Made by a program: the position numbers and the translations under genes. A stretch of DNA of 61,648 bases from Burkholderiales bacterium (GTDB lineage Bacteria; Pseudomonadota; Gammaproteobacteria; Burkholderiales; SG8-41): assembly GCA_050741255.1 (NCBI GenBank), contig JBOIEQ010000004.1, forward strand, positions 1 through 61,648, read 5' to 3'. Under the pieces are notes generated by a model that did no database searches, was not told the DNA's origin, and was given only the letters and a program-made list of their open reading frames with translations. Every line of letters starts with the position of its first letter. Positions within the stretch are counted from its first letter, which is position 1. Positions 17,982-33,406 of this stretch are shown here, piece after piece.

Positions 17982-18005
17982 GAACACCACTCCTCCGACA
18001 ATGTC

Positions 18006-18040: not shown

Positions 18041-18069
18041 TAATGGAATGTATCTTGTATAGATAGAAA

Positions 18070-20063: not shown

Positions 20064-20071
20064 GACCCGCG

Positions 20072-21220
20072 ATGAATCCCCGTGAGACCGGCGGTGCGTT
20101 GAACGGCCTGCGCGTCATCGACCTGACGCGCGTGCTCGGCGGCCCCTACTGCACGCAGATTCTCGGCGACCACGGCGCCGACGTCATCAAGGTCGAACCG
20201 CCGCAGGGCGACGAAACCCGCGCGTGGGGACCGCCCTTCAGGGACGACACCGCCGCCTATTTCCTCGGCGTCAACCGCAACAAGCGCGGCATCGTGCTCG
20301 ACCTCGGCCAACCCGCGGGACGCGACGCGTTGCTGGCGCTGCTGGAAGACGCGGACGTCCTGGTGGAGAACTTCAAGACCGGCACGCTCGAACGCTGGGG
20401 CCTCGGCTACGACGACGTGCTCGAACCGCGCTTTCCAGGTCTTGTGCATTGCCGGATTTCGGGGTTCGGTGCCGACGGGCCGCTCGGCGGCCTGCCGGGC
20501 TACGACGCCGTCGTGCAGGCGATGGCCGGGCTCATGAGCGTCAACGGCGAGGCCGGGGGCGAACCGCTGCGCGTGGGCGTGCCGGTGGTGGACATCGCAA
20601 CGGGGCTCAATGCCGCGATCGGCATCCTCCTCGCCCTGCAGGAGCGCCAGCGCAGCGGAAAAGGCCAGTTCGTCGAGACTACACTCTACGATTGCGGCCT
20701 CTCCTTGCTGCATCCGCATCTGGCGAACGTCTTCCTCGGCGCGAAACCACCGGGCCGCACCGGCAACGCGCACCCGAACATCACGCCCTACGACACCTTC
20801 CGCACACGGTCGGCGCCGATCTTCATCGCCGTCGGCAACGACGGGCAGTTCCGTAAGCTGTGCAGCGAGCTCGGCGCTGCGGCAATCGCGGACGATGTGC
20901 GCTTTGCCGACAACGCCAGCCGCGCGGCGCACCGCACGGCGCTGAAAGCCACACTGGAACAGGCGCTGGCGGAACACGACGGCGCGGTCATCGCCCAGCG
21001 GTTGATCGAGGCGGGTGTGCCCTGCGGCCCGATCTTCGGCATCGACGAGGTGGCGGGGCATCCGCACACCCGTCATCGGGACATGCTGGTCGAGATCGGC
21101 GAATACCGGGGCACCGGCTCGCCGATCAAACTCGGCCGGACGCCGGCGCGCTACGCACGGCGCCCGCCGGCGCTCGGCGAGCACACCGACGAGGTCACAC
21201 GGGCGGCGAAGAAGAAATAG
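20072..21220 (+). CDS. family III CoA-transferase (CaiB/BaiF-like)
   Basis: Trimmed to ATG 20072: MNPRETGGALNGLRVIDLTRVLGGPYCTQILGDHGADVIKVEPPQGDETRAWGPPF. Confidence 0.85.
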   Translation: MNPRETGGALNGLRVIDLTRVLGGPYCTQILGDHGADVIKVEPPQGDETRAWGPPFRDDTAAYFLGVNRNKRGIVLDLGQPAGRDALLALLEDADVLVENFKTGTLERWGLGYDDVLEPRFPGLVHCRISGFGADGPLGGLPGYDAVVQAMAGLMSVNGEAGGEPLRVGVPVVDIATGLNAAIGILLALQERQRSGKGQFVETTLYDCGLSLLHPHLANVFLGAKPPGRTGNAHPNITPYDTFRTRSAPIFIAVGNDGQFRKLCSELGAAAIADDVRFADNASRAAHRTALKATLEQALAEHDGAVIAQRLIEAGVPCGPIFGIDEVAGHPHTRHRDMLVEIGEYRGTGSPIKLGRTPARYARRPPALGEHTDEVTRAAKKK

Positions 21221-21238: not shown

Positions 21239-22639
21239 TCAGCGGGTAGTGCCGCCCGGTACGCCCTTTTCCGCGAGGTCCCAGTACAGCCCGGCCATGA
21301 TCTGCAGGCCTTCGCGCAGGATGGAGCCCAGCGCGTGCTCGTCCGGCGCGTGCTGGGAACAGCCGGCGTAGGAATGCGGCACCCACAGCGTCGGCAGTCC
21401 CAGCGTCTCGGCGAAGCAGTCGTTCGGCAGCGAGCCGCCGATGTTGGGCAGGATCGCGGGCGCAACACCCGTCGTGCGGCGGATGGACTCGGCGGCCCAG
21501 CGCACCCAGGGATTGTCCGGATCGAGGCGCGTCGCCTGCATGAAGCTCTTGCGCGCCATGCCAATCTGCACGGATTCGAAGCCGTGCGCGTCCAGGTGCC
21601 GGCGCAGGATGGGGATGAAGCTGTCGGGCTCCGAGCCGGCGACGAAGCGGACCTGGCAGGTCGCCGTCGCCTTGCCGGGAATCGCGTTCACCGGGTTGTC
21701 GGGGTTACCCGTGCGGAAGGCGAGGATCTCGAAGGTATTCCACGCATAGACCTTCTCCGCGGCGGACAGTCCCGGTTCGCCCCACCACGCGTCGATCTCC
21801 GGCTCGCCTGCTTCCGGCTGCGGCGTGCAGTCAACGAGCGCCTTCTTCACGCTGGCAGGGATGCTTTCCGGCAGCAGCTCGCGCACCAGCACCTTGCCCT
21901 CGCGGGTGACGATGCTCGCCAGCGCATGCGCGAGCACGACACCTGGATTCGCGAGCAGGCCGCCCCAGTTGCCGGAGTGGTGCGCGCCCTCGCGGAATTC
22001 CACGGTGAAGGTGAGGTTCAGGCAGCCGCGCGAGCCCAGGTACAGCGTCGGCCGCTTCGCCGCGAGGCGCGGACCATCGGAGGCGATCAGCACGTCGGCC
22101 TTGAGTCTCTCCTTGTGCGTTTCGCAGAACGCTTTCAGGCCGGGCGAGCTCATCTCCTCACCGGTCTCCAGCATGAACTTGGCGTTGAAACCCAGCTTCC
22201 CGCGCTCGGCGATCACGGTTTCGAGCGCGGCCATGTTGACCGAATGCTGGCCCTTGTTGTCCGCGGTGCCGCGGCCGTACCAGCGGTCGCCCTCCTGCTT
22301 CAGGATCCACGGCGTGATGCCCTCGCGCCACTGCTCGTCCAGCCCGCGGATCACGTCGCCATGGCCGTAGCCCAGCACCGTCGGCAGCCCGGGATCCTCA
22401 ATGCGCTCGGCGAGGAGGATGGGCCCCACACCTTCGACCGGATTCGGCAGGATCTCCACCTTGAAGCCCATGCGCTCGAAGGCCGGGCGGATCTCGTCCC
22501 GCACATAGTCATCGAGGAACGGCCGGCTCGCCGGCACCTGGCTCTCGGTATGGATCGCCACGCGGCGGGCGAGGTCCTCGGCGAAGCGGCCTTCGTCGAA
22601 ATGGCGGGTGGCGCGGGAGACTGCGGATTCTCGGGTCAT
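21239..22639 (-). CDS. M20-family metallopeptidase/dipeptidase (ArgE/DapE/CPG2-like)
   Basis: 466 aa. ...TVLGYGHGDVIRGLDEQW...WYGRGTADNKGQHS... Host-like high GC. Confidence 0.8.
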   Translation of the reverse strand: MTRESAVSRATRHFDEGRFAEDLARRVAIHTESQVPASRPFLDDYVRDEIRPAFERMGFKVEILPNPVEGVGPILLAERIEDPGLPTVLGYGHGDVIRGLDEQWREGITPWILKQEGDRWYGRGTADNKGQHSVNMAALETVIAERGKLGFNAKFMLETGEEMSSPGLKAFCETHKERLKADVLIASDGPRLAAKRPTLYLGSRGCLNLTFTVEFREGAHHSGNWGGLLANPGVVLAHALASIVTREGKVLVRELLPESIPASVKKALVDCTPQPEAGEPEIDAWWGEPGLSAAEKVYAWNTFEILAFRTGNPDNPVNAIPGKATATCQVRFVAGSEPDSFIPILRRHLDAHGFESVQIGMARKSFMQATRLDPDNPWVRWAAESIRRTTGVAPAILPNIGGSLPNDCFAETLGLPTLWVPHSYAGCSQHAPDEHALGSILREGLQIMAGLYWDLAEKGVPGGTTR

Positions 22640-22659
22640 AATGATCGCCTTACTCGGGT

Positions 22660-23874
22660 ATGGATTTTGAATTTGCCAGTCGCGTGCTTACGCATCACGA
22701 TTCGATCTTATCGAATTTCATCGAACTGTCAGGAGCCATCGTGATCGAGCAAAAGATCAATGAATTCTTCAGTGATGCCGAGGCTACCGGCTTTGGCACC
22801 GGCTGGTGGAGCGGGGTGCTGTCGGCCTTCTTCGGAATTCTCGCCCTGGGGGCGGTGGTGTGCCTGCATTTTCCCCAGGTGCTGACGTCTCCCGAGTTGC
22901 GGGACTACTACCCCATGCCCCTCATGCGCATGCTGATCCAGGGGCTGGTGGTGGGCGCGATCCTCCTGGGTGTCGTGTCCGCGATGCTGCGGAGGAAGAA
23001 AGTCCTCGCGTTGACCGGGATGGTGTTCGCACTGGGCGCGACGCTGCTGGGCGGCGCCAGCGTGCCCATCAACCAAACGCTGGGCAATGGCCCGGCTATC
23101 GGGCTGGACTGGTTCCTGCTCGACATGCTGCTCATGACGATGATCTTTTCGCCCATCGAAGTGCTCTGGCCGGCCTATCCGGAGCAAAACGTCTTCCGGG
23201 CCGACTGGCTGCAGGACATCGTGTACTTCCTGTCCACGCACCTGCCCATCCAGATCACGTCCTTCCTGATCCTGCTGCCCGCCACCCAGATCTCGACCTA
23301 CCTCGCCATTCCCGGCATGGTGGATGCGGTCGGCCGCCTGCCCTGGCTGGTGCAGTTCGTCCTCGCCGTCCTGGTGGCCGATCTCGCCGAGTACGCCATC
23401 CACCGGGCCTTCCACACGGTGCCCTTCCTGTGGCGCTTCCACGCCATCCACCATTCATCGAAGGCGCTGGACTGGTTGGCGGGTTCTCGGGCCCACATCG
23501 TGGAAGACCTCTTGATACGGGGAGGCATGCTGATTCCGATGATGTTCATCTTCTCGCACGAGATCATCGTGGCCTACCTGCTCTTCGTGACCATCCATGC
23601 GACCTGGGCGCATTGCAATTTCCGCCCGACCATCAAGTGGCTGGAGCCCTTCTTGATCCAGCCGAGGTTCCATCACTGGCACCACACCTCACAGAAGGAA
23701 GCGATCGACCGGAACTTCGCCATCCATTTTCCGTGGATCGACAAAATCTTCGGGACCTGTTACTTCCCCGCCGACGGCAGGTGGCCGGATACTTACGGCC
23801 TGCACAACGAGAAAATTCCAGCCACCTTCTGGGGTCAGTTCGTGTATCCGTTTACGGGCAAGAAGACGGGCTAG
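22660..23874 (+). CDS. fatty-acid hydroxylase/sterol-desaturase-superfamily membrane protein, alkylglycerol-monooxygenase (AGMO)-like His boxes
   Basis: 404 aa. N-terminal polytopic region, then EYAIHRAFH...WRFHAIHHSS...WAHCNF...FHHWHHTSQKEAIDRNFAIHFPWIDKIFGT. An alternative start is GTG 22741, preceded by AGGAG. GC is lower than in the flanking genes. Confidence 0.75.
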   Translation: MDFEFASRVLTHHDSILSNFIELSGAIVIEQKINEFFSDAEATGFGTGWWSGVLSAFFGILALGAVVCLHFPQVLTSPELRDYYPMPLMRMLIQGLVVGAILLGVVSAMLRRKKVLALTGMVFALGATLLGGASVPINQTLGNGPAIGLDWFLLDMLLMTMIFSPIEVLWPAYPEQNVFRADWLQDIVYFLSTHLPIQITSFLILLPATQISTYLAIPGMVDAVGRLPWLVQFVLAVLVADLAEYAIHRAFHTVPFLWRFHAIHHSSKALDWLAGSRAHIVEDLLIRGGMLIPMMFIFSHEIIVAYLLFVTIHATWAHCNFRPTIKWLEPFLIQPRFHHWHHTSQKEAIDRNFAIHFPWIDKIFGTCYFPADGRWPDTYGLHNEKIPATFWGQFVYPFTGKKTG

Positions 23875-23880
23875 CGCCAG

Positions 23881-24738
23881 CTAGAAGTTCAAGGAAGTCA
23901 GCCGAACGTCCGCGGGAATTTCCGTGCCCTTGGCCGTGGCATTGACGAGGCCAAGACTTTTCATCGTCTTGACGGTAACGAATCCAAAATCGTATTCGGA
24001 TTGATCGTGGCTCAGGCGCAGGAGATGCGGATGATGGTGATGATTGTTCTGCAGGCAGGCACTGAAGGTCGCAGTGACCGGTAGCCACTCGCCGATGTTC
24101 ATCGCATTATCGTGCTCGTCGTTGTAGCGCCGATATCCGTAGGCCCGATCGTGGGTCCAATAGTTCTGGATCATGTTTACCCAGGTTGCGAATATTCTGA
24201 GGCCGACCCACATGACGAGCGCGAACTTCCAGTCTCGCACCAGCAGCCATAAGAGGGAGAAGCTGAAGAACTGTGAAAACACCGCGAAATAATTGTTCGA
24301 GACGAGCCGGAACGCCCAGGATTTGAAGATCCTGTCGGTGGCAAGGTTCTCATTGCAAGAATACGGAATCAGGCAGAGATACAAGGTTCGCCAAAAGCCA
24401 TCGCTTGCAAGTTTATTGGGGTCCCCGGGATGATCCGAATGTTTATGATGCAAACGATGGCGATTCACCCATTCGATGGGGTCGACGTAGAGACCGAAGA
24501 GGTTGTTGATGATAACGACGAGCTTTATGAACCATTCTTTGTAATCGAGTGAACGATGCGCGATACCCAGGTGAAGCACATCGGCCAGATATAGTCCGGC
24601 CATAAACCAGAAAAAGAAAAAGTACGCTCCGCCTATTGCCAACCCTCCCCAAGGCCCCAAATGAGCCGGCGCGAAAAGCATGCACGCGAGCAGATACAAA
24701 AAAATAATGGAATAGCCAATGACATTGTATATTTTCAC
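23881..24738 (-). CDS. membrane fatty-acid desaturase, Delta9 acyl-CoA/acyl-lipid type
   Basis: 285 aa. Three His boxes: HRSLDY, HRLHHKHSDHPGDPN and NNHHHHP. This is the most AT-rich gene in the window. Confidence 0.8.
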   Translation of the reverse strand: MKIYNVIGYSIIFLYLLACMLFAPAHLGPWGGLAIGGAYFFFFWFMAGLYLADVLHLGIAHRSLDYKEWFIKLVVIINNLFGLYVDPIEWVNRHRLHHKHSDHPGDPNKLASDGFWRTLYLCLIPYSCNENLATDRIFKSWAFRLVSNNYFAVFSQFFSFSLLWLLVRDWKFALVMWVGLRIFATWVNMIQNYWTHDRAYGYRRYNDEHDNAMNIGEWLPVTATFSACLQNNHHHHPHLLRLSHDQSEYDFGFVTVKTMKSLGLVNATAKGTEIPADVRLTSLNF

Positions 24739-24800
24739 TGACGAATCTCCCTGTCATATCCGAACCGAAATTAGAACGCCCTTCAATTAATATGTAAAGG

Positions 24801-24816
24801 GGGAAGACGTCTTTCC
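24801..24816. promoter_or_regulatory. palindrome GGGAAGACGTCTTTCC (perfect 10-bp core AAGACGTCTT) in the divergent desaturase/reductase promoter region
   Basis: Read directly. It lies in a 132-bp AT-rich intergenic region between divergently transcribed genes. Confidence 0.3.
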
Positions 24817-24870
24817 TTTAAGAGAAATTTCCAATCGGGCGGATGACGCTGTTCAACTATTTTTACGCGC

Positions 24871-26118
24871 ATGCGAATTAGAAATTTTCCGAAGTCCGTC
24901 TTTCTGACCGGCGCCACCGGCGTGCTGGGCGGCCGCGTTCTGAAAGACCTTCTTCAATCGACTTCATGCAATATCTATTGCCTGGCGCGCGGCAAAGATG
25001 CCGCGCATTGTCGCGAACGCGTCCGTTCCTTTGTTCGCGTTTATGACAATGAGGGGGCGCTGGAGCAGGAATTCCTCGCGCGCGTCACTGTGATACCCGG
25101 CGATGTAACCCACGAGCGGCTCGGGTTATCGGCACCCAGTTTCGCCAAGCTTCAAAGCTGCACCGATCTCACGATCCACGCGGCGGCCAACACGAGCCTG
25201 CTTCTCAAATACAAACGGCTCGAACCGATCAACGTTCACGGCACCGGTCGCGTAATAGAGTTCTGTCTCGGCACCGCCGAAAAAATGCTCTCGTATGTCT
25301 CCACCTACACGGTAATGGGGGATAAAACTTTCGATAACAGCATTCGCTTTCAAGAGACCGATTTCGATCTGGGGCAGGGATTCAAGCACATGAATTACCA
25401 GCGCTCGAAGTTTCGCGCGGAAGCGATGGTGCGGCGGGCCCAGGAGCGCGGCCTGAAATGGCGCATCTTCCGTCCGGGCCAGATTTACGGCGACTCGATC
25501 ACCGGCGCATATCCACATTCCGAGACGCAGGTCACGGGGCTGTTCTACGATCTCTTCAGAACCGCAATGGACACGCGGGTGATGCCCGAATCGTATATCC
25601 ACTACGATGTCGTTCCTGTGGATTACGTGAGCCGCGGGATCATCGCCCTCTCTGCAGGCATCGACAATTTCTTCGACGTCTATCACCTGACGAATCCAGA
25701 TGTGAAAACTTTCGCCCAGATCATGGGGCTTCTGCGGGAGATCGGTTACCCGATCGATCTGCTGCCCGAGGAAATCTACAAGCAAAGACTTCGACAAGGA
25801 GAAATCACCAAGAACGGCGAGCCCTACGCGAGCACAATGCTAAAGGCCTTCAATCTCTGGTATTTCATCTCCAAGATCAGCTTCTACGGCAGCGCGATGA
25901 CGGACTGCGAGTACACGCGCTCGAAGCTTGAAAATCTGGGAGTGGCCTGTGCGCCAATCGATCGCAAGCTCATCGAAACCTATGTGCAAGCCGGCATCCG
26001 CGAAGGATACTTTCCGCGGCCCCCGCATAGTCACAACCAGAATGCCGCGCGCGCTTCTACCGATTTGGCGGCTGACTTCCCGGCAGGTCTTCTCAGCGCC
26101 GAAGGATCTCCCATATGA
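24871..26118 (+). CDS. thioester-reductase / fatty acyl-CoA reductase-like SDR (NAD_binding_4, 'male sterility' type)
   Basis: 415 aa. Rossmann motif FLTGATGVLGGRV and catalytic YQRSK. Its stop overlaps the next ATG (ATGA at 26115-26118). Confidence 0.75.
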   Translation: MRIRNFPKSVFLTGATGVLGGRVLKDLLQSTSCNIYCLARGKDAAHCRERVRSFVRVYDNEGALEQEFLARVTVIPGDVTHERLGLSAPSFAKLQSCTDLTIHAAANTSLLLKYKRLEPINVHGTGRVIEFCLGTAEKMLSYVSTYTVMGDKTFDNSIRFQETDFDLGQGFKHMNYQRSKFRAEAMVRRAQERGLKWRIFRPGQIYGDSITGAYPHSETQVTGLFYDLFRTAMDTRVMPESYIHYDVVPVDYVSRGIIALSAGIDNFFDVYHLTNPDVKTFAQIMGLLREIGYPIDLLPEEIYKQRLRQGEITKNGEPYASTMLKAFNLWYFISKISFYGSAMTDCEYTRSKLENLGVACAPIDRKLIETYVQAGIREGYFPRPPHSHNQNAARASTDLAADFPAGLLSAEGSPI

Positions 26119-27836
26119 TGAAGTGGTGGGGTTGGGGCGATCCGCAGTTGGCGTTCCCGATGGCCGACAAGCCGAATCTCTGGCCCTGGGCGGCAAAGAA
26201 GCTTGGGATTACGAGTGTCACGCCCACCGCCATGCCCGTCGATCTCTCGTCGATCGAGATCGCTCCTTCGCGCGCGAGCGCTGAGCTGCTCGCCGAACTC
26301 GGCCGGACATTAAAACCCGAACAGATCACACTCGATCCGCTCGAGCGGCTACTTCACAGTTACGGCAAAAGCTTCCCCGACCTCTTCTCCGTTCGAAACG
26401 GAGTCTTACGACGTGCGCCAGACGCTGTTCTCCTTCCGGATTCGCACGAACAAGTAGAAGCTCTCGTTCAGCTCGCGCACCTGCGCAACTTTTGTCTGAT
26501 CCCTTTTGGCGGCGGAACGAACATTGTCGGCGGGATTAATCCCGAAGTCGGCGAAGCACGTCCGATGATGACACTCAGTCTGCGCAACATGAACCGCCTG
26601 ATTTCACTCGATGCGGAATCCCGGACTGCGACGATCGAGGCGGGAGCACTCGGCCCCAAGCTCGAGGCCGATCTGGCGGCACAAGGTCATTCGCTCGGGC
26701 ATTACCCCGACTCTTTCGAATACTCCACCCTGGGAGGATGGCTGGCCACCCGCTCGGCGGGCATGCAGTCAGACGCCTACGGCAAGATCGAGGACATGGT
26801 CGTTTCTATCAAGATGGTCACTCCCTCGGGCACAATCGTCACGAAAGCGGTTCCGTCGTCCTCCGCCGGCCCCGATCTCAATCGCATCATGATCGGATCC
26901 GAGGGCATTCTGGGCGTGATCACCCAGGCGACGGTGCGTGTCCACAAAACACCCGCCATCAAGGATTATCGGGGTTACCTTTTCAGGAGTTTCGAAGGCG
27001 GGGTGCGCGCCATCCAGGAGTGCCTGGACCGCGGTTTCGCACCGAGCATGATTCGGCTTCAGGACAGCGGAGAGAGCGAGCTCGCTTTTAATATGAAAGC
27101 CCCCAAACAGGGGCTTGAGGGCTGGATACAGAATCGAGTGAAGGACTGGCTCAGATTCCGCGGCTACATCGAGCCTTGCATCCTGATCGTTGGCTTCGAG
27201 GGTGAGGAAAATTCGATCGCAGCTACCCGCCGCTCCGTCTTCGGCATCCTGAGGAGTCATGGCGGATTCTCTCTCGGCAAAGGTGTTGGCAAGACATGGT
27301 CGAAGGATAAGTTCAACATCCCCTACCTGCGCGACTACATCATGGACTACGGCTGCATGGCCGACGTTGCTGAGACTTCGACCCTGTGGTCGAAGGTGCT
27401 GCCGCTCCATGCTGGCACGGTTGAAGCCGTGAAGGCGCGCTTCCGGCAGGACGAAGGCACGGGCTACATCGGCTGCCACATCTCCCATACCTACAAAACC
27501 GGCGCTTGTCTCTACTTCACGTTCGCTGCGCGACAACCCAGGGGCAAGGAACTCGAGCATTACTATGCATACAAGGACCTCGTCACCAATACAATCATGA
27601 GCCTGGGCGGCACCCTCAGCCACCACCACGCCGTTGGAATCGAGCATCGCCCCTGGATGAGGCAGGAAGTCTCTCCTGCCGGGCTGCAGGCCCTCCACGC
27701 GCTCAAGGCTTCGCTGGATCCGAATCACGTATTGAATCCAGGCAAGCTTCTGCCGGAGCTCGGCGCTAGCGCAGACCGCGCGGGATCGTCAGCCTCATTG
27801 CGGAACCGTTCCTTCCTTGGAGATCGGGCCGCCTGA
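26115..27836 (+). CDS. FAD-linked oxidase, alkyldihydroxyacetonephosphate synthase (AGPS)-like
   Basis: 573 aa. N-terminal MMKWWGWGD (compare eukaryotic AGPS W-N-G-W-G). FAD-binding IPFGGGTNIVGG. CHISHTYKTGACLYFTFA and LSHHHAVGIEHRPWM (AGPS HHH loop). Confidence 0.75.
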   Translation: MMKWWGWGDPQLAFPMADKPNLWPWAAKKLGITSVTPTAMPVDLSSIEIAPSRASAELLAELGRTLKPEQITLDPLERLLHSYGKSFPDLFSVRNGVLRRAPDAVLLPDSHEQVEALVQLAHLRNFCLIPFGGGTNIVGGINPEVGEARPMMTLSLRNMNRLISLDAESRTATIEAGALGPKLEADLAAQGHSLGHYPDSFEYSTLGGWLATRSAGMQSDAYGKIEDMVVSIKMVTPSGTIVTKAVPSSSAGPDLNRIMIGSEGILGVITQATVRVHKTPAIKDYRGYLFRSFEGGVRAIQECLDRGFAPSMIRLQDSGESELAFNMKAPKQGLEGWIQNRVKDWLRFRGYIEPCILIVGFEGEENSIAATRRSVFGILRSHGGFSLGKGVGKTWSKDKFNIPYLRDYIMDYGCMADVAETSTLWSKVLPLHAGTVEAVKARFRQDEGTGYIGCHISHTYKTGACLYFTFAARQPRGKELEHYYAYKDLVTNTIMSLGGTLSHHHAVGIEHRPWMRQEVSPAGLQALHALKASLDPNHVLNPGKLLPELGASADRAGSSASLRNRSFLGDRAA

Positions 27837-27916
27837 AACTGCGTCAGCGGCCACAACGGTGAGCGCGGTGCCGCAGGCTGGCGGGTGTGGGTTCATATGA
27901 TTCTTGTCGGAAATCA

Positions 27917-28531
27917 ATGATCACGGCCATTGTTGCAGTAGCCGCTTACCTTCTCGGGTCTGTGTCCTTCGCGGTAATTGTGAGCCGCGTGTTCCAGCTA
28001 CCCGATCCGCGCACCTATGGCTCGGGCAATCCCGGCGCAACCAATGTGCTGCGGTCCGGTAACAAATTCGCGGCCGCGCTGACGCTGCTGGGAGACGCAC
28101 TCAAAGGCTGGCTGGCAGTGTGGCTGGCAGAGCGCATCGCGCCTGCCGGTGACGCCGAACTGGCGATGGCCCTTGCGGGCACGCTGTCTGTGCTCGGTCA
28201 CATGTATCCGCTCTTTCACGGGTTTCAGGGCGGCAAGGGCGTGGCAACGGCGCTGGGCGCACTGTTTGGCTTTAGCGTTTACCTCGGGCTGGGTGGGATT
28301 TCGACGTGGATCATTCTCGTGGCGTTTTTTCGCACATCCTCGATTGCATCAATCGCATCGGCTATATGTGCGCCGTTTGTAGCGTGGATGCTATTCGGTT
28401 TTTCTCATCCGGTTTTTGCCAGCGTGGTGCTGTTGGCATTGCTGGTGATTTATCGTCATCGTCAGAACATCAAAAGTATTCTGGCCGGCACGGAAAGAAA
28501 GTTCGGACAAAAAGCCGGGCCTGGCGCTTAA
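27917..28531 (+). CDS. plsY: acyl-phosphate:glycerol-3-phosphate acyltransferase PlsY-family protein
   Basis: ORF 27887..28531, trimmed to ATG 27917: MITAIVAVAAYLLGSVSFAVIVSRVFQLPDPRTYGSGNPGATNVLRSG...HMYPLFHGFQGGKGVAT. Codon usage is atypical for the host, with many A/T third positions. Confidence 0.85.
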   Translation: MITAIVAVAAYLLGSVSFAVIVSRVFQLPDPRTYGSGNPGATNVLRSGNKFAAALTLLGDALKGWLAVWLAERIAPAGDAELAMALAGTLSVLGHMYPLFHGFQGGKGVATALGALFGFSVYLGLGGISTWIILVAFFRTSSIASIASAICAPFVAWMLFGFSHPVFASVVLLALLVIYRHRQNIKSILAGTERKFGQKAGPGA

Positions 28532-28813
28532 GTTGGAACAGATTGGAACCCGGGCAGCGACCGACGTTATCCCTCTTTTGCAGCATTCCGCCAAAGCGAA
28601 ATAACCTGACGCATCAGCACTCGACTCTTCCAAAGAAGAAAATGCGCACAATCCTGATCATCGCGGGTCTTTACCCCTACCCGGTCAAGCGTTGCGCCGG
28701 CGGCGTGGTCTTCGGCCGGAACGTCATCGCGCTGAAAGGCATCGGTCCTACGCTGCGCGTGGGCCAGGCCCTCGCCGAAGAATGGAATTCCTGACGCCGG
28801 GCAGTCCCGAGGT

Positions 28814-29128
28814 TCAGTCGTCGGGGATCTCGATATCCATCAGCGGGGCGTATTGCTGCCCGCCGTGGCCGTCCGGGTCGAGCAGGTCGCCCTGCGAATG
28901 CGGGCGCGGAATCGTCGCCTTGATCGCCAGCGCGGGATCGCAGAAGAAGAGCTTCACCTTCTCCGGCGGCAGGTTGTAGCGCGCGCCGATCACTTCCCGC
29001 GTGATCGCGCCCGAGCGCTTGACGCGCTCGTAGGTCGCGGGCTGCTCGAACATCACGTCGAACGTCAGCTCGAACGGGCCCGCGTTCTTGCTGCGGATCA
29101 GCCGCGCGAGGCTGGCCAGGCTGCTCAT
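28814..29128 (-). CDS. DUF4387-like protein (equivalent to the C-terminal part of AtuA)
   Basis: 104 aa. MSSLASLARLIRSKNAGPFELTFDVMFEQPATYERVK. Its start overlaps the upstream stop (ATGA at 29125-29128). Confidence 0.65.
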   Translation of the reverse strand: MSSLASLARLIRSKNAGPFELTFDVMFEQPATYERVKRSGAITREVIGARYNLPPEKVKLFFCDPALAIKATIPRPHSQGDLLDPDGHGGQQYAPLMDIEIPDD

Positions 29129-30540
29129 GCGGTCACCTCCGTCACGCTCGCCGCGCGCACCTCATACAAGCGCATCGGAAACATCTCGTAGGGGCTGTCG
29201 GGTTCGACGACGTGGTTGATGTTGAATTTGTAGACCGCCCCGCGGTCGAGATGCGCCGGGTTGTACGGGCACGCGATCGTCGTGATCAGACCGCTCCACT
29301 CCGGGATCGGCAGGTGCAGACCCTGGTGGCGCGTGATGCCGGCAATAGTGCTCGCGATGTCCTGCGTCGGTGCGGTGATCTCGAACACGAGGCACAGTTC
29401 GTGCGAGCGGATCTCCCTGACCGGCTCCAGTTCGCCCATGGTGCCGTTCTTGCCGTAGATGCGGATGTGCAGGTGATACTGGTCCGGCGCCAGCTGGTCG
29501 CCGTAGACCTGTGTCACGCGCGCCTGGATGCGCACCTTCAGGCGCGCCGTCCAGTCGTCGATCTGGCGGATGATGAAGGGATCGCGCACGCCGCCGATGA
29601 TCACGCTCTGGTAGCCGATCTTCTCTGCCCCTTCCAGCTTCACGGTGTAGCGCTCGGCCGGGATGAACGCACTGCCGGAGACCTTCACCGAGCGGTCGTT
29701 GACGGCTTCGTAACGGCTGGTGGTCAGATCGAGCGTGCCGGAGCATTCGACCAGCCGGAACGGATCGGCATTCTCGTAAAGACTGTGCGAAGCGATGCTT
29801 TGCGGCGTGCAGCGGTAGTCGGGATTCGGCGGCTCCACGACGAAGTGGTCCTTGCGCAGCCAGGCGAACATGCAGTCGGCGGACGTGCGCTGCACGACCG
29901 AGGCCGCGCCGCATTCCATGATCTTGGCCATGTGCCAGGCCAGACCTTCCGGAAAACCGTACTTGATCGGCAATGCGGCGAAAATCGCCGTGTCGCTGGC
30001 GCGCCCGGCGATGACGACGTCGGCGCCGGTTTCGACCGCCCTGATGAACGGCTCGGCGCCCATCATGCCCACGATGCACGCGCTGCGGTCGATGACCTGC
30101 TCGTCGAACGGCGGCGCCGGATCGAGCGGCGTGATGCGGCCTTCGCGCAGGCGCTGCTTGAGAAAGTCGCGTTCCTGCTCGGCGCGGATGACGGCGAGCC
30201 TGAACGACAGCTTCTCCTCGGCGGCGATCTCCTTCAGGATGTCGACCATCCAGCGCACGTGGGCGTCGCCGCCCGCCGTGCCCGCGGAACCGATCAGCAG
30301 CGGCACCTTGAGGCGGCGCGCGCCGATCAGCATCAGGCGCAGGTCGCGTTTCACCGCCTGGGCGGGGAACGCGGCGACGCCGTCGCCGAGATGGCTCGGT
30401 CCGGGATCGGTCGAGCCCGCGTCGCAGCCGATGAAGTGCGGCTGCAGCGCCAGCGCCTTCTCGAAACTGCTTTCGAGGAAGCCCGACCCGCACACCCCGT
30501 TGGGGGCGAGGACCCGGATCTCGTCCATGCCGCTGTTCAT
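29125..30540 (-). CDS. acyclic terpene utilisation AtuA-like protein (DUF1446)
   Basis: Trimmed to ATG 30540: MNSGMDEIRVLAPNGVCGSGFLESSFEKALALQPHFIGCDAGSTDPGPSHLG. Confidence 0.7.
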   Translation of the reverse strand: MNSGMDEIRVLAPNGVCGSGFLESSFEKALALQPHFIGCDAGSTDPGPSHLGDGVAAFPAQAVKRDLRLMLIGARRLKVPLLIGSAGTAGGDAHVRWMVDILKEIAAEEKLSFRLAVIRAEQERDFLKQRLREGRITPLDPAPPFDEQVIDRSACIVGMMGAEPFIRAVETGADVVIAGRASDTAIFAALPIKYGFPEGLAWHMAKIMECGAASVVQRTSADCMFAWLRKDHFVVEPPNPDYRCTPQSIASHSLYENADPFRLVECSGTLDLTTSRYEAVNDRSVKVSGSAFIPAERYTVKLEGAEKIGYQSVIIGGVRDPFIIRQIDDWTARLKVRIQARVTQVYGDQLAPDQYHLHIRIYGKNGTMGELEPVREIRSHELCLVFEITAPTQDIASTIAGITRHQGLHLPIPEWSGLITTIACPYNPAHLDRGAVYKFNINHVVEPDSPYEMFPMRLYEVRAASVTEVTA

Positions 30541-30584
30541 CTGTTCGTACCTCGCGGGTTTGACGCCGCTGTCCTTGTTCAGGT

Positions 30585-31958
30585 TCAGGCCACCGGCCGG
30601 CAAAGCTGCAGGAAACGCTTCGTGTTTTTTTCCGCTTCCAGCGCCCAGATACGTGCGCTCAGTTCACGGCTCCGGGCATCGCCCAGCACCGGCACGGCCA
30701 GGGCCATGAACTTGTCCTGCAGCTCGGCGTCGCTCGGGGGATTGTCCGGGCTGTAGCCGCGCGCGTGTTCGACGTGGTGTTCGAACGCTTCGCCATTGTC
30801 GAGCGTCACCGTCATGCGCGTCTCGTCCTTGCGCACGCCGGGGTTCGATTCCACCTCCACCTTCTGCCGCAGCGCCGTGACGTCCGGCAGCGCCGCGCGC
30901 GCATCCGCGAACTGGCCGGGCAGCGCGGCGCCGTCCAGCAGCGTCACCGCGATCGCGTGGTAGGGACTGAACTTCGACTGCATGCCGGTGACCGGCTCGC
31001 GCACCCGCATCTGTTCGAGCACCTGCGGATGCACCACGGCATGGATCTTCCGGATGCGATCCACCTTGGTCTCCAATTGCGGCCGCAGCGCCAGCGCCGC
31101 GTCGAGCGCGGGATGCACCACGCCGCCGCAGGAATAGAGCTTGTAGCCCTTGCGGATGAAACAGTAGTCGCGCCCCAACCCGGCGAGGATGGGCCCGGCA
31201 TCGGCACCCGCGCAGGCCACTTCGAGGAAACCGCGCGCGCCCTCGAGACCGGTCTCGGGCCCGGTGAATCCCGAGGACGCGAGAAACGCCGCGCGCACGC
31301 CGTTGGCCGAGGCGTTCCCGGCGTGCAGCGACTTCATCATGGAGCCGAAGCTCACCCGCAGGCCCGCCGCCTCGCTCGCCGCGATCCCCAATGCGTAATT
31401 GCCCTGGGCCGGATCGAGCTTGAGGAGATTGGCGGCCGCGGCGGCCGCGCCTAGCGTGCCGACGGTGCCCGTGCTGTGCCAGCCCGGCTCGTAGTGCGTG
31501 AGCTGGGTCGCCTCGCCGACGCGGCCCGCGACTTCGTAGCCGGCCGCCATGGCGGCGATCAGCTGGCGTCCCGGCGTCCGGCTCCACTCGCCCGCCGCGA
31601 GCGAGGGCGGCACGATGACGATACCCGGATGGATGCCGGCGGCCGAATGCACGTCGTCGAAGTCATAGACGTGGCCCATGCTGCCGTTGACCCACGCGGC
31701 CGACACCGGATCGAGCCGCTCCGCACGGCCGATGACCGTGCCGCCGGTCTTGCCAGTCGTCGCCTTCCGGCCGCGGAGCTGCGCGAGATGGGCGAGCAGC
31801 AGGTCGACGATCCGGTGATGCGCGCCCAGCAGCGCGACGCCCATGAAATCCAGCAGCGCGCGTTTCACTTCGTGGGCCGCCGGTGCCGGCAGGTCCCGGT
31901 AGCGCAGGCCGGTGGCGAACTCGGCGAGCCGCGCGGTCAGTCGTGTTTCCGAACTCAT
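30585..31958 (-). CDS. MmgE/PrpD-family protein (second copy, specificity unknown)
   Basis: Trimmed to ATG 31958: MSSETRLTARLAEFATGLRYRDLPAPAAHEVKRALLDFMGVALLGA...YDFDDVH...WHSTGT. Confidence 0.85.
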   Translation of the reverse strand: MSSETRLTARLAEFATGLRYRDLPAPAAHEVKRALLDFMGVALLGAHHRIVDLLLAHLAQLRGRKATTGKTGGTVIGRAERLDPVSAAWVNGSMGHVYDFDDVHSAAGIHPGIVIVPPSLAAGEWSRTPGRQLIAAMAAGYEVAGRVGEATQLTHYEPGWHSTGTVGTLGAAAAAANLLKLDPAQGNYALGIAASEAAGLRVSFGSMMKSLHAGNASANGVRAAFLASSGFTGPETGLEGARGFLEVACAGADAGPILAGLGRDYCFIRKGYKLYSCGGVVHPALDAALALRPQLETKVDRIRKIHAVVHPQVLEQMRVREPVTGMQSKFSPYHAIAVTLLDGAALPGQFADARAALPDVTALRQKVEVESNPGVRKDETRMTVTLDNGEAFEHHVEHARGYSPDNPPSDAELQDKFMALAVPVLGDARSRELSARIWALEAEKNTKRFLQLCRPVA

Positions 31959-32077
31959 GCTGCGATTCCTTGATCGATGCGATGCGGCGGCAAGCTTCTC
32001 GGGCAGGCGCGAGCCTGTCAAGCGAATCGCGATTCGCTACACTCGGGTGGCTGTTTTCCCTTCCCGTCGAGGCCGGT

Positions 32078-33052
32078 ATGACGCTGATGCTCCGCTGCTT
32101 GCTTCTGCTGGCGCTCGTCGCGAATGGCGCCACGCTTTCCCTCACCGCCTCCGCGGCATATCCGGACCGGCCGATCCGCCTGGTCGCGCCCTTCCCGCCG
32201 GGCGGCGGCGTCGATCTCGTGGCGCGCGTCCTCGCGCAGGCGCTCTCCGACGGCTTCAAGGTGCAGGTCATCGTGGACAACCGCGCGGGCGCCACCGGCC
32301 GCATCGGCACCGAACTCGTCGCCAGGGCGGCGCCCGACGGCTACACGCTGCTGCTCGGCAGCGTCGGCGCGAACGCCATCATCCCGGCGGCGTACCGCAA
32401 TCTGCCGTACGACGCGGTGAACGACTTCGCGCCGATCGGCGTCGTCGCCTCGGCACCCTACGTCCTGGTGGTGCATCCGTCGCTGCCGGCCAAAAACATG
32501 AAGGAACTGATCGCGCTCGCCCGCGCGAAGCCCGACGCCCTCACCTACGCCTCGTCCGGCAACCTGAGCGGCGCGCACCTGTCCGGGGAATTCATCAACT
32601 ATCTGGGCAAGGTGCAGATGCTGCACGTGCCGTACAAAGGCGCCGCGCCGGCGATGAACGACCTGCTGGGCGGGCAGGTGGCGATCACCTTCGCGGCCAT
32701 TTCCGGCGCCGTGCCCTTCGTCCAGTCCGGGCGCCTGCGCGCGCTCGGCGTCACCGGCCCCAAACGGTCGGCGGCCTTTCCCGACGTGCCGGCGATCGGC
32801 GAAGTGCTCAAGGGCTACGATGTCAGCCAGTGGTACGCCCTCTTCGCGCCCGCCGGCACGCCGAAGGACGTCGTCGCGCGGCTGCACGAGGAGATGGTCA
32901 AAGCGCTCGACAAGCCCGACGTCCGCAAGCGGCTCGTGGACATCGGCGCGGATCCCGTGGGCGGCACGCCCGACCAGCTCGCCGCGCAGGTCAAGGCCGA
33001 GATCGCCCGCTGGGGCACCGTCATCAAGGCTGCGGGCATCAAACCGGAATAA
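32078..33052 (+). CDS. Bug/TctC-family periplasmic substrate-binding protein
   Basis: Trimmed to ATG 32078. Signal peptide, then YPDRPIRLVAPFPPGGGVDLVAR...DNRAGATG...APDGYTLLL. Confidence 0.88.
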   Translation: MTLMLRCLLLLALVANGATLSLTASAAYPDRPIRLVAPFPPGGGVDLVARVLAQALSDGFKVQVIVDNRAGATGRIGTELVARAAPDGYTLLLGSVGANAIIPAAYRNLPYDAVNDFAPIGVVASAPYVLVVHPSLPAKNMKELIALARAKPDALTYASSGNLSGAHLSGEFINYLGKVQMLHVPYKGAAPAMNDLLGGQVAITFAAISGAVPFVQSGRLRALGVTGPKRSAAFPDVPAIGEVLKGYDVSQWYALFAPAGTPKDVVARLHEEMVKALDKPDVRKRLVDIGADPVGGTPDQLAAQVKAEIARWGTVIKAAGIKPE

Positions 33053-33063
33053 TCGCCGCTGGG

Positions 33064-33360
33064 CTAGCGCCGCTTGCCGAATCCCGCCAGGTGTATGCGC
33101 CGCGACTCGTTCAGGATCGCCAGGTACACCTTGTGCAGCATCTTGTCGTTGACGCCGTACTGTCTGGCCCACGCCTTGCGCTGCGCGAACACTTTCTTCC
33201 GGTGCGCCGGATTGCCGATGCTCTTGCGGTCGGTCTTGAACTGCAGCGCGGCCTTGGCGTAGCCGGTGCGCTGCCCAAGCAGTTTGACAATGGCGCGGTC
33301 GATCGTATTGACCGCGACGCGGATATCGGTGAGATTGCGGCAGGCACGGGGAGATTTCAT
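33064..33360 (-). CDS. chorismate mutase type II domain protein (PchB/isochorismate-pyruvate-lyase-like)
   Basis: 98 aa. CRNLTDIRVAVNTIDRAIVKLLGQRTGYAKAALQFK matches the AroQ-class helix pattern. Confidence 0.6.
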   Translation of the reverse strand: MKSPRACRNLTDIRVAVNTIDRAIVKLLGQRTGYAKAALQFKTDRKSIGNPAHRKKVFAQRKAWARQYGVNDKMLHKVYLAILNESRRIHLAGFGKRR

Positions 33361-33406
33361 GGTTTCCTTTCAGCACGGGTTCCGGAACGGGCAGTGTACC
33401 GCCATC

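What the first reader, a model, noticed from the sequence alone, without database searches (positions are those of the whole stretch)
24871..27836. Translationally coupled reductase and AGPS-like pair, the two committed ether-bond activities in one transcript
Seen: the reductase stop and the AGPS-like start overlap (ATGA at 26115-26118), so the two genes are almost certainly co-translated. The AGPS-like protein begins MMKWWGWGD. It also carries IPFGGGTNIVGG, CHISHTYKTGACLYFTFA and LSHHHAVGIEHRPWM, which resemble the conserved W-x-G-W-G N-terminus, the FAD-binding loop, and the Tyr and HHH-loop segments of eukaryotic AGPS. The reductase has GATGVLGG and YQRSK, typical of the NAD_binding_4 thioester-reductase class that includes fatty acyl-CoA reductases.
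Inference: one enzyme makes a fatty alcohol (or aldehyde) and the other installs it on acyl-DHAP. Alternatively the SDR could be the alkyl-DHAP reductase.
Basis: partly seen in the sequence, partly recalled or inferred. Interest (0 to 1): 0.7.

Follow-up and report, generated by a model that had tools for sequence, protein, structure and literature searches.

The report
Mobile bacterial ether-lipid gene cassette
A soil-type betaproteobacterium carries an imported five-gene block in which a fatty-alcohol-making reductase is joined stop-to-start to the enzyme that forms the ether bond of ether lipids; this is a bacterial variant of the pathway known from animals and myxobacteria, credible but not a new principle.

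Summary
ORF 24871-26118 is a stand-alone NAD(P)H thioester reductase (TR). ORF 26115-27836 is a true alkyl-DHAP synthase (AGPS). The two overlap in ATGA. AGPS matches solved AGPS at E 7e-133 and 1e-90, and it keeps the equivalents of Arg419, Tyr578 and His615-617. The TR-AGPS junction is conserved: ATGA or TAATG in 11 of 15 related loci from Burkholderiales, Steroidobacteraceae and Bdellovibrionota.

In other phyla AGPS sits next to other NAD_binding_4 reductases (FAR+Sterile, AMP-ACP-TR, PKS-TR). That supports the reading that the reductase supplies the fatty alcohol.

The pair lies in a 5.8-kb low-GC3 cassette (22731-28514). It also holds a FA_hydroxylase-family enzyme, an SCD-like desaturase and a PlsY paralogue, and it occurs at different sites in different genomes. 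The TR resembles PKS/NRPS terminal R domains, not eukaryote-type FAR.

AGPS next to a FAR-GNPAT fusion is already known in Myxococcus xanthus, so this is a new variant of a known kind. Biochemistry is untested, and no DHAP acyltransferase or alkyl-DHAP reductase is evident in the window.

The parts
22731..28514 (.). About 5.8-kb ether-lipid cassette (imported island)
   Evidence: blastn homology between the window and L007, L022, L004, L009 and L010 is confined to this interval, and the flanks differ in every genome. GC falls to 0.46-0.62 here against 0.68-0.71 in the flanks. GC3 is 0.63-0.71 for four of the five genes against 0.87-0.93 for host genes.
22741..23874 (+). FA_hydroxylase-superfamily membrane di-iron enzyme (377 aa by gene callers; the longest ORF starts at 22660)
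   Evidence: PF04116 at E 2e-29 on the C-terminal domain. HxxxH and HxxHH histidine boxes are visible in the translation. It is conserved in all window-type cassettes. dN/dS is 0.15-0.16. No match in PDB sequences.
23881..24738 (-). Small SCD-like membrane fatty-acid desaturase (285 aa), divergent from the TR gene
   Evidence: PF00487 at E 1.3e-7. Full-length weak alignment to human and mouse stearoyl-CoA desaturase (4zyo, 4ymk), with the three histidine boxes in register: AHR, HRLHHKHSDHPGDP, NNHHHHP. No hit to the CarF/PEDS1 family even at E up to 1. dN/dS is 0.06-0.09.
24739..24870 (.). AT-rich divergent intergenic region, the presumed promoter region for the desaturase (-) and TR-AGPS-PlsY (+)
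   Evidence: Lowest GC of the window, 0.46-0.47. No consensus promoter was found, so the role is inferred from position only.
24871..26118 (+). Stand-alone NAD(P)H-dependent thioester reductase (TR), the proposed fatty acyl-thioester to fatty alcohol reductase
   Evidence: PF07993 at E 4.5e-54. TIGR01746 scores 231.4 bits against a cut-off of 213.35. TGxxGxxG at aa 13-20; T145, Y176 and K180 are invariant in 18-22 homologues. Best PDB matches are 8v1x and MxaA 4u7w at E about 1e-39. The fold search gives the same order.
26101..26118 (+). Translational-coupling junction: GAAGGA (26101-26106), 8-nt spacer, ATGA stop/start overlap (26115-26118)
   Evidence: Read directly from the sequence. The overlap is conserved in related loci.
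26115..27836 (+). Alkyl-dihydroxyacetonephosphate synthase (AGPS, EC 2.5.1.26 family)
   Evidence: FAD loop at 26499-26534. R314 codon at 27054-27056, Y467 codon at 27513-27515, HHH 503-505 at 27621-27629. All are invariant in 13 bacterial homologues. dN/dS is 0.05-0.11.
27917..28531 (+). Cassette-borne PlsY paralogue (acyl-phosphate:glycerol-3-phosphate acyltransferase family), 80 nt downstream of AGPS
   Evidence: TIGR00023 scores 182.7 bits against a cut-off of 137.2. GC3 is 0.63, like the cassette and unlike the host. It travels with the cassette in L007, L022 and L090. All 7 cassette-linked PlsY fall in one NJ clade, apart from 3 folB-linked housekeeping PlsY. dN/dS is 0.23-0.28.

Best explanation
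The pair is the core of a horizontally acquired, oxygen-era ether-lipid biosynthesis cassette in an uncultured Burkholderiales-like bacterium.

The proposed pathway runs as follows.
1. The stand-alone thioester reductase uses NAD(P)H to reduce a fatty acyl thioester (acyl-ACP or acyl-CoA) through the aldehyde to a fatty alcohol.
2. The FAD enzyme AGPS, translated from the overlapping start codon and so made in step with the reductase, exchanges the acyl group of 1-acyl-DHAP for that alcohol. This gives 1-O-alkyl-DHAP, the committed ether-bond step.
3. A ketoreductase then makes 1-alkyl-glycerol-3-phosphate, which enters ordinary phospholipid synthesis. In most sister cassettes this ketoreductase is an adjacent classical SDR. 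In this window it is not encoded nearby.
4. The two divergently and upstream-encoded di-iron membrane enzymes probably tailor the chain by desaturation or hydroxylation.
5. The PlsY paralogue downstream probably supplies or balances the acylated three-carbon backbone.

Shown here: the identities of the proteins, the conserved catalytic residues, the conserved overlap and synteny, purifying selection, and the island character of the cassette.

Inferred: the substrates, four-electron reduction to the alcohol, co-transcription, and the roles of PlsY and the di-iron enzymes.
For: AGPS identity:
- E 6.8e-133 and 1.1e-90 to solved AGPS, with R314, Y467 and H503-505 aligned to Arg419, Tyr578 and His615-617. 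PDB titles of 4bc7 and 4bca name the Arg419His and Tyr578Phe mutants.
- The model's top 37 PDB hits are all AGPS.

Reductase identity:
- TIGR01746 above its cut-off.
- Nearest structures are terminal R domains 8v1x and MxaA. MxaA is known, from my own knowledge of Barajas et al. 2015, to carry out a four-electron reduction to a primary alcohol.

Coupling: ATGA or TAATG at 11 of 15 loci.

Recurrent linkage of AGPS to reductases of different architecture:
- window-type TR in 8 of 80 representative loci;
- FAR+Sterile in Gemmatimonadetes;
- AMP-PP-TR in a gammaproteobacterial MAG;
- PKS ending in ACP-TR in Oleiharenicola.

Pathway partners across phyla: an SDR within 3 kb in 46 of 80 loci and a PF01553 acyltransferase in 33 of 80.

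Cassette portability and purifying selection.

Precedent: the M. xanthus operon MXAN_1676 (AGPS), MXAN_1675 (FAR-GNPAT fusion), MXAN_1674, whose AGPS deletion reduces ether lipids (PMC9131029, PMC13012113).
Against: - No enzyme assay or lipid analysis exists for this cassette or for its host lineage.
- No PF01553 acyltransferase and no adh_short SDR of the cluster type lies anywhere in the 61.6-kb window, so two canonical steps (DHAP acylation, alkyl-DHAP reduction) have no evident gene here.
- The reductase's nearest relatives act on carrier-protein-tethered substrates, and some R domains stop at the aldehyde.
- A 77%-identical TR stands alone without AGPS in a Methylotenera MAG, so the pairing is not obligatory.
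- In M. xanthus the AGPS route is only a minor contributor to ether lipids (PMC9131029).
Confidence: 0.75

Rival explanations
1. The 415-aa protein is not the alcohol supplier. It is the acyl/alkyl-DHAP reductase. It might also do both jobs in the cassettes that lack an SDR.
For: The PlsY-type cassettes (window, L007, L022) and L095 and L107 have no SDR nearby. TR enzymes that carry out a four-electron reduction do reduce a carbonyl (the aldehyde) in their second step.
Against: The known acyl/alkyl-DHAP reductases (PexRAP/DHRS7B, yeast Ayr1) are classical short-chain SDRs; this is from my own knowledge. TR and a classical adh_short SDR co-occur in most sister cassettes and in the more distant loci L005, L006, L011, L012 and L015. 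TRs from SDR-bearing cassettes are about 67-74% identical to the window's TR, against 81-83% for those from PlsY-type cassettes. The protein passes the curated thioester-reductase model.
Confidence: 0.07
2. The cassette makes plasmalogens (vinyl ethers), not only alkyl ethers. The FA_hydroxylase-family enzyme or the SCD-like desaturase would act as a non-CarF 1'-desaturase.
For: Two O2-dependent di-iron membrane enzymes are conserved in every window-type cassette and are under purifying selection. Bdellovibrionota-type loci carry a different, soluble di-iron protein (PF03405-like) in the same place. The FA_hydroxylase superfamily includes alkylglycerol monooxygenase, which attacks C1' of the alkyl chain; this is from my own knowledge.
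Against: Neither protein matches the CarF/PEDS1/TMEM189 family, even at E up to 1. The desaturase's histidine boxes align with Delta9 acyl-CoA desaturases, which suggests mid-chain desaturation. There are no lipid data.
Confidence: 0.2
3. The reductase stops at the fatty aldehyde (two-electron reduction), and the pair does not form a direct alcohol-to-ether relay. The alcohol would come from another enzyme, or the reductase would serve another product.
For: Many terminal R domains and CAR R domains, which are among the fold matches, release aldehydes (the chemistry is from my own knowledge). A near-identical TR occurs without AGPS in one MAG.
Against: The stop/start overlap with AGPS is conserved across phyla. 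AGPS recurs next to bona fide FAR-type alcohol-forming reductases elsewhere. The closest solved relative, MxaA, forms alcohols.
Confidence: 0.1
4. The 573-aa protein is a 2-hydroxyacid (D-lactate or glycolate type) dehydrogenase of the same flavoprotein superfamily, not an AGPS.
For: It shares the PF01565 and PF02913 domains. NCBIfam's only hits are GlcD-type models, all far below their cut-offs.
Against: E-values are a hundred orders of magnitude better to AGPS than to any dehydrogenase. The AGPS-specific Tyr and HHH loop are present and invariant. The structural search ranks all AGPS entries first. The neighbours are lipid enzymes.
Confidence: 0.02

Closest known systems
[quoted passage not shown]
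   Same: It is a bacterial AGPS clustered with an NAD_binding_4-type acyl reductase. Deleting the AGPS lowers alkyl and vinyl ether lipids (PMC9131029, PMC13012113). The pathway logic is the same: alcohol supply plus ether-bond formation.
   Different: In the window the reductase precedes AGPS and overlaps it. It is a stand-alone 415-aa TR-type protein with no fused acyltransferase and no Sterile domain. The acyltransferase next door is PlsY, not a GNPAT/PlsC-family enzyme. Two di-iron enzymes are added. The whole block is a portable 5.8-kb island in Burkholderiales and Steroidobacteraceae.
Eukaryotic peroxisomal ether-lipid pathway (FAR1/2, GNPAT, AGPS, PexRAP)
   Same: AGPS is homologous along its whole length, with the same catalytic residues. 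Both need a fatty alcohol made by an NAD_binding_4 reductase. The SDR in sister cassettes parallels PexRAP.
   Different: The reductase is not of the FAR1 type; the only solved FAR (7eoz) scores E 1e-4 and TM 0.53. No GNPAT homologue is present. The genes are operonic and translationally coupled. No PEDS1 homologue is present.
Terminal thioester-reductase (R) domains of PKS/NRPS (MxaA 4u7w/4w4t; S. coelicolor PKS TR 8v1x) and CAR R domains
   Same: These are the best sequence and fold matches: E about 1e-39 and TM 0.70-0.79. They share the TGxxGxxG and T/Y/K signature and the C-terminal substrate subdomain.
   Different: The window's protein is free-standing, with no carrier protein or adenylation domain in the cassette. 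Its substrate must therefore be a diffusible acyl-ACP or acyl-CoA. It is dedicated to primary-lipid-type chemistry rather than natural-product release.
ElbD pathway of myxobacteria (ACS-ACP-FAR-acyltransferase multidomain enzyme)
   Same: It is another aerobic bacterial ether-lipid route built around an acyl-reducing domain (PMC9131029). AMP-PP-TR and PKS-TR proteins of this style sit next to AGPS in L056 and L086.
   Different: The ElbD route works without AGPS, whereas the window has AGPS and no ElbD-like multidomain protein.
Housekeeping PlsY of Burkholderiales (folB-plsY locus)
   Same: It is 74-77% identical to the cassette PlsY, and all residues that are at least 98% conserved are retained.
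   Different: The cassette copy is not next to folB. It has cassette-like GC3 (0.63), moves with the cassette, and forms its own NJ clade.

Membership tests
AGPS / alkyl-DHAP synthase (EC 2.5.1.26) | VAO-type two-domain flavoprotein: FAD_binding_4 plus FAD-oxidase_C | tested here: met
   PF01565 at E 1.8e-35 and PF02913 at E 4e-39.
AGPS / alkyl-DHAP synthase (EC 2.5.1.26) | Much closer to characterised AGPS than to other members of the superfamily | tested here: met
   2uuu at E 6.8e-133 and 4bby at 1.1e-90, against 1.3e-31 for the best non-AGPS. In Foldseek the top 37 hits are all AGPS, and the next class scores E 3e-27.
AGPS / alkyl-DHAP synthase (EC 2.5.1.26) | Catalytic Tyr (guinea-pig Tyr578), HHH loop (His615-617) and Arg419 | tested here: met
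   Y467, H503-H505 and R314 align to them and are invariant in 13 bacterial homologues. The PDB mutant entries 4bca and 4bc7 confirm the numbering.
AGPS / alkyl-DHAP synthase (EC 2.5.1.26) | Acyl-DHAP plus fatty alcohol gives alkyl-DHAP plus fatty acid | not testable with these tools
   Needs an enzyme assay.
Thioester reductase domain family (TIGR01746 / Pfam NAD_binding_4) | Score above the curated cut-off | tested here: met
   TIGR01746 scores 231.4 against 213.35 bits. PF07993 scores 183.8 against 20.1.
Thioester reductase domain family (TIGR01746 / Pfam NAD_binding_4) | Rossmann TGxxGxxG motif and Thr/Tyr/Lys catalytic triad | tested here: met
   T13-G14-A-T-G17-V-L-G20, T145, Y176 and K180 are invariant or nearly so in alignments A2 and A3. 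They align with 8v1x.
Thioester reductase domain family (TIGR01746 / Pfam NAD_binding_4) | Fused to, or partnered with, a carrier protein (PCP/ACP) upstream | tested here: not met
   The protein is 415 aa and stand-alone. There is no PP-binding domain in the protein or in the cassette.
Eukaryote-type fatty acyl-CoA reductase (FAR1-like) | NAD_binding_4 followed by a Sterile (PF03015) C-terminal domain | tested here: not met
   No PF03015 hit. Such FARs do sit next to AGPS in Gemmatimonadetes loci L046 and L058, but they score only 34-36 bits against the window's TR.
FARAT (FAR-GNPAT fusion, MXAN_1675 type) | C-terminal PF01553 acyltransferase domain fused to the reductase | tested here: not met
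   No PF01553 domain in the 415-aa protein, and none anywhere in the window with the cluster acyltransferases as queries.
PlsY (acyl-phosphate:G3P acyltransferase) | Score above the curated equivalog cut-off and conserved motif residues | tested here: met
   TIGR00023 scores 182.7 against 137.2. All positions that are at least 98% conserved in 120 homologues are retained, and the only clade-specific change is V99L.
PlsY (acyl-phosphate:G3P acyltransferase) | Housekeeping genomic context (divergent from folB in Burkholderiales) | tested here: not met
   L087-L089 show folB-plsY, while the window, L007, L022 and L090 show AGPS-plsY.
CarF/PEDS1 plasmanylethanolamine desaturase | Membership of the TMEM189/FAD4-like desaturase family | tested here: not met
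   Neither di-iron protein hits that Pfam family at E up to 1. They hit PF00487 and PF04116 instead.

The most novel reading that the evidence does not exclude
The Burkholderiales form of the cassette could be a self-sufficient aerobic ether-lipid (possibly plasmalogen) pathway built from non-orthologous parts. The captured PlsY paralogue would act as an acyl-phosphate-dependent DHAP acyltransferase, standing in for GNPAT. One of the two di-iron enzymes would stand in for CarF/PEDS1. If so, alkyl or vinyl ether phospholipids would be made by common soil Betaproteobacteria and spread by horizontal transfer.
Probability: 0.15. Interest if true: 0.7.

Novelty: new variant of a known kind. Interest (0 to 1): 0.45.

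Why it matters
Aerobic ether-lipid synthesis in bacteria has been tied experimentally almost only to myxobacteria. Surveys list AGPS homologues in many phyla without asking what accompanies them (PMC11868695, PMC13159169).

Here the gene neighbourhoods show that bacterial AGPS genes commonly sit in small operons with an alcohol-forming reductase, an SDR and acyltransferases. One compact version is a mobile cassette in soil and peat Proteobacteria.

That gives a defined 5.8-kb unit to express and test. It offers candidates for the missing bacterial alkyl-DHAP reductase and DHAP acyltransferase. It also bears on the source organisms of environmental alkyl glycerol ethers and on the debate about a bacterial origin of the eukaryotic pathway (PMC13012113).

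It does not overturn any current view.

Tried and rejected
- Mobile-element hallmarks at the island borders: no tRNA gene in the window. Only short repeats of chance level were found, with no flanking direct or inverted repeats. No integrase or transposase lies in the adjacent ORFs.
- Promoter and terminator scan of 22.4-29.0 kb: counts equal the shuffle expectation, so it was not used as evidence.
- PlsY specificity change: I looked for residues conserved in the cassette clade but different in housekeeping PlsY. Only V99L turned up, so the sequence gives no support for an altered acceptor such as DHAP.
- CarF/PEDS1 identity for the 285-aa desaturase: rejected.
- PDB sequence search for the FA_hydroxylase protein: no match.
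- Literature searches for AGPS catalytic-residue papers and for any description of AGPS with a thioester reductase or PlsY in bacteria: nothing relevant in the held library. One search failed on a formatting limit. The catalytic-residue numbering was confirmed from PDB entry titles instead.
It was rerun without them.
- Direct comparison with M. xanthus MXAN_1675 and ElbD was not possible.
- Whether cassette-bearing genomes also keep a folB-linked plsY or an unlinked SDR could not be checked, because only contig fragments are held.
- NCBIfam has no AGPS model. Its only hits were GlcD-type models far below their cut-offs, so that library neither names nor excludes AGPS.


Full report
**Observation**

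Gene calls on an independent assembly of the same contig agree. The reductase stop TGA (26116-26118) overlaps the AGPS start ATG (26115-26117). A GAAGGA motif lies 8 nt upstream of the ATG. All quoted peptide motifs are present at the positions listed.

**The 573-aa protein**

It has the FAD_binding_4 and FAD-oxidase_C domains. Against all PDB sequences it matches Dictyostelium alkyl-DHAP synthase at E 6.8e-133 and guinea-pig AGPS at E 1.1e-90. The best non-AGPS member of the superfamily scores 1.3e-31.

In those alignments three sites are conserved:
- R314 (SMIRLQD) aligns with Arg419.
- Y467 (ACLYF) aligns with Tyr578.
- H503-505 aligns with His615-617.

The numbering is anchored by PDB entries 4bc7 (Arg419His) and 4bca (Tyr578Phe). 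All three sites and the GGGTN flavin loop are invariant in 13 bacterial homologues that are 58-83% identical to the query.

An AlphaFold2 model (mean pLDDT 72) retrieves only AGPS structures in its first 37 PDB hits, with TM 0.69-0.81. D-lactate dehydrogenases come next at E about 1e-27. NCBIfam has no AGPS model and offers only sub-threshold GlcD hits. I regard AGPS family membership as established by sequence. Activity is untested.

**The 415-aa protein**

It is NAD_binding_4 (E 4.5e-54) and passes the curated cut-off of TIGR01746, the thioester reductase domain model (231.4 against 213.35 bits). It has no Sterile domain, no carrier-protein domain and no acyltransferase domain.

Its nearest solved relatives are the terminal R domains of a Streptomyces PKS (8v1x) and of the myxalamid assembly line (MxaA, 4u7w/4w4t), at E about 1e-39. 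The only solved fatty acyl-CoA reductase (7eoz) scores 1.4e-4.

A model (pLDDT 77) gives the same order by fold. R domains come first (TM 0.70-0.79), then CAR R domains, and the plant FAR is at rank 27 with TM 0.53. TGxxGxxG, T145, Y176 and K180 are conserved in 18-22 homologues.

The protein is, however, a free-standing R-domain-type reductase rather than a FAR1-type enzyme. MxaA is known to reduce its thioester all the way to the primary alcohol (my own knowledge), which is what AGPS needs. Whether this enzyme does the same is inferred.

**Is the pairing meaningful?**

A scan of 185,579 species-representative genomes found 457 with a confirmed AGPS relative, and the best 80 loci were kept. 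They span Burkholderiales, Steroidobacteraceae, Bdellovibrionota, Elusimicrobia, Planctomycetota, Ignavibacteria, Gemmatimonadetes, Verrucomicrobia, Chlamydiae, Legionellales, Acidobacteria and Acidimicrobiia.

I searched the ORFs of these loci with the window's proteins and with neighbours taken from loci L004-L006. Within 3 kb of AGPS the counts were:

| Neighbour within 3 kb of AGPS | Loci (of 80) |
|---|---|
| NAD_binding_4-type reductase | 27 |
| Classical SDR | 46 |
| PF01553 acyltransferase | 33 |

The reductase comes in at least four architectures:
- the window-type stand-alone TR, directly upstream in 8 loci at 200 bits or more;
- a eukaryote-like FAR with a Sterile domain (Gemmatimonadetes, L046 and L058);
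- AMP-binding, PP-binding, TR (L056);
- a PKS ending in ACP-TR, followed by an SDR and AGPS (Oleiharenicola, L086).

Non-orthologous reductases recruited repeatedly next to AGPS are good evidence that the reductase feeds AGPS.

Among 15 loci with a TR-type reductase upstream, the junctions were:

| Junction type | Loci (of 15) |
|---|---|
| ATGA overlap | 9 |
| TAATG overlap | 2 |
| Longer overlap | 1 |
| Gap of 6-21 nt | 3 |

Most also have a purine-rich motif 5-12 nt upstream.

TR and a separate adh_short SDR co-occur in most sister loci.

**The wider unit**

GC drops from about 0.68-0.71 to 0.46-0.62 between about 22.5 and 28.8 kb. Third-position GC shows the same contrast:

| Gene | GC3 |
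|---|---|
| Desaturase | 0.66 |
| TR | 0.69 |
| AGPS | 0.71 |
| PlsY | 0.63 |
| FA_hydroxylase gene | 0.87 |
| Host genes in the flanks | 0.87-0.93 |

blastn shows that homology between the window and loci from an Oxalobacteraceae MAG (L007), a Burkholderiaceae MAG (L022), Steroidobacteraceae MAGs (L009, L010) and a metagenome contig (L004) is limited to window 22731-28514. Every genome has different flanks.

The cassette has this order: FA_hydroxylase-family protein (+), SCD-like 285-aa desaturase (-), TR (+), AGPS (+), and a variable fifth gene.

All five genes are under purifying selection, with dN/dS of 0.05-0.28. No tRNA, integrase or terminal repeats mark the borders.

**The fifth gene**

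It varies among close relatives in genomes and metagenomes:
- an SDR co-directional downstream, overlapping the AGPS stop in L004 (L004, L009, L101);
- a different SDR on the opposite strand downstream (L097, L098, L100, L102, L103, L104, L151);
- an SDR upstream of the hydroxylase gene (L093, L094, L096);
- PlsY co-directional (window, L007, L022, L090);
- PlsY convergent (L108);
- nothing within 5 kb (L095, L107).

The SDR is therefore the usual partner, and PlsY is a Burkholderiales-specific addition or replacement.

Housekeeping plsY in Burkholderiales lies divergent from folB (L087-L089) and is 74-77% identical to the window's PlsY. In a neighbour-joining tree of 120 homologues, all seven PlsY with a known cassette context fall in one clade. 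The three folB-linked ones fall elsewhere. The tree has no bootstrap support, and organismal relatedness could contribute to the grouping.

The paralogue keeps every conserved PlsY residue and has no clade-specific substitution except V99L. The sequence therefore gives no sign of a new acceptor specificity. Its role is open. A recent study shows that PlsY, unlike PlsB, is not stereoselective at C2 of glycerol phosphate (PMC13400652). That makes acylation of DHAP conceivable but unproven.

**What is missing**

No PF01553 acyltransferase and no cluster-type SDR lies anywhere in the 61.6-kb window. Formation of acyl-DHAP and reduction of alkyl-DHAP must therefore rely on PlsY, on unlinked genes or on host enzymes. 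This is the main gap in the mechanism.

**The di-iron enzymes**

The 285-aa protein aligns along its length, weakly, with human and mouse stearoyl-CoA desaturase, with all three histidine boxes in register.

The other protein has a C-terminal FA_hydroxylase domain behind a hydrophobic N-terminal half of about 200 aa.

Neither belongs to the CarF/PEDS1 family. Bdellovibrionota-type loci carry a soluble ferritin-like di-iron protein at the equivalent place. Chain tailoring is the conservative reading. Vinyl-ether formation by a non-CarF enzyme is possible but unsupported.

**Host**

The window equals a whole 61,648-bp contig held by NCBI and Logan. Several lines point to an uncultured Burkholderiales-like betaproteobacterium:
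- It carries several TctC/Bug receptors, CoA-transferase, PrpD and aconitase catabolic clusters, and the spc/alpha ribosomal-protein operons.
- The L14 protein shares a 90% cluster with a 'Burkholderiales bacterium' MAG protein. Most other ribosomal proteins have no 90% relatives.
- The nearest cassettes are in Burkholderiaceae and Oxalobacteraceae MAGs.

**Comparison with what is known**

M. xanthus has the operon MXAN_1676 (AGPS), MXAN_1675 (FAR-GNPAT fusion), MXAN_1674. Its AGPS contributes, in a minor way, to alkyl and vinyl ether lipids (PMC9131029, PMC13012113). AGPS homologues have been counted in many bacterial phyla, including Proteobacteria (PMC11868695, PMC13159169, 10.64898/2026.06.23.733905).

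I found nothing in the held literature on the following features:
- the stand-alone R-domain-type reductase translationally coupled to AGPS;
- the compact portable cassette;
- the PlsY paralogue;
- the two di-iron partners.

I therefore file the finding as a new variant of a known kind. It is still unproven biochemically.

Noticed in passing
window 22500-28800: The five lipid genes form a compositional island. GC is 0.46-0.62 against 0.68-0.71 in the flanks. GC3 is 0.63-0.71 for four of the genes against 0.87-0.93 for the host. The FA_hydroxylase gene alone has host-like GC3 (0.87). No tRNA, integrase or border repeats were found.
   Followed up: yes
window 27917-28531; L087-L090, L108: The PlsY is a cassette-borne paralogue, while housekeeping Burkholderiales plsY sits next to folB. 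In L108 a related PlsY lies convergent to AGPS, so the association arose in two orientations. I could not check whether carrier genomes keep a second plsY.
   Followed up: partly
L004, L009, L093-L104, L101, L151 versus window, L007, L022: The fifth cassette gene is interchangeable. It can be one of three placements or types of classical SDR, or PlsY, or absent (L095, L107). The SDR is the obvious candidate for the bacterial alkyl-DHAP reductase.
   Followed up: partly
L091 (Methylotenera sp. MAG, GCA_014378465.1) 9001-10191: A TR 77% identical to the window's stands alone. There is no AGPS or any other cassette gene within 9 kb.
   Followed up: no
L086 3-9713 (Oleiharenicola MAG); L046 and L058 (Gemmatimonadetes MAGs); L056: AGPS is preceded by a PKS (KS-DH-ER-KR-ACP-TR) plus an SDR in L086. 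In L046 and L058 it is directly preceded by a eukaryote-like FAR (NAD_binding_4 plus Sterile). L056 has acyltransferase-AGPS-SDR followed by an AMP-PP-TR protein. These are alternative alcohol suppliers for AGPS.
   Followed up: partly
L005 3890-4696; L011, L012, L026: Bdellovibrionota-type loci carry a soluble ferritin-like di-iron protein (weak PF03405 and Rubrerythrin hits) where the window has membrane di-iron enzymes.
   Followed up: no
L009 4585-5748 (Steroidobacteraceae MAG): The FA_hydroxylase gene is split into two adjacent ORFs. This is either a frameshift or stop in that MAG, or an assembly error.
   Followed up: no
window 50400-61648 (- strand): This stretch holds the spc/alpha ribosomal-protein operons with SecY and RpoA, judged by ORF sizes and order. 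L14, L16, S8, S14, L6, L24 and S11 were found by exact look-up, most with no 90% relatives. That suggests a poorly sampled lineage.
   Followed up: partly
window 8090-21220 and 28814-37226: The host flanks are dense in organic-acid catabolism genes: two family III CoA-transferases, two PrpD/MmgE proteins, aconitase large and small subunits, a PEP-mutase/ICL-family protein, an acyl-CoA dehydrogenase, an enoyl-CoA hydratase, an AtuA plus DUF4387 pair, an IclR regulator and at least three TctC/Bug receptors.
   Followed up: no
window 28642-28794 (+): A 50-aa ORF was called just outside the cassette border, downstream of PlsY. It has no family match and is not conserved in the other cassettes.
   Followed up: no
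L025 (Alsobacter soli SH9) and L014 (Fluviispira multicolorata 33A1-SZDP): Two cultured isolates carry related AGPS loci. Alsobacter has reductase-AGPS followed, on the opposite strand, by an SDR and an acyltransferase. Fluviispira has the same arrangement without the adjacent reductase. They could be used directly for lipid analysis.
   Followed up: no
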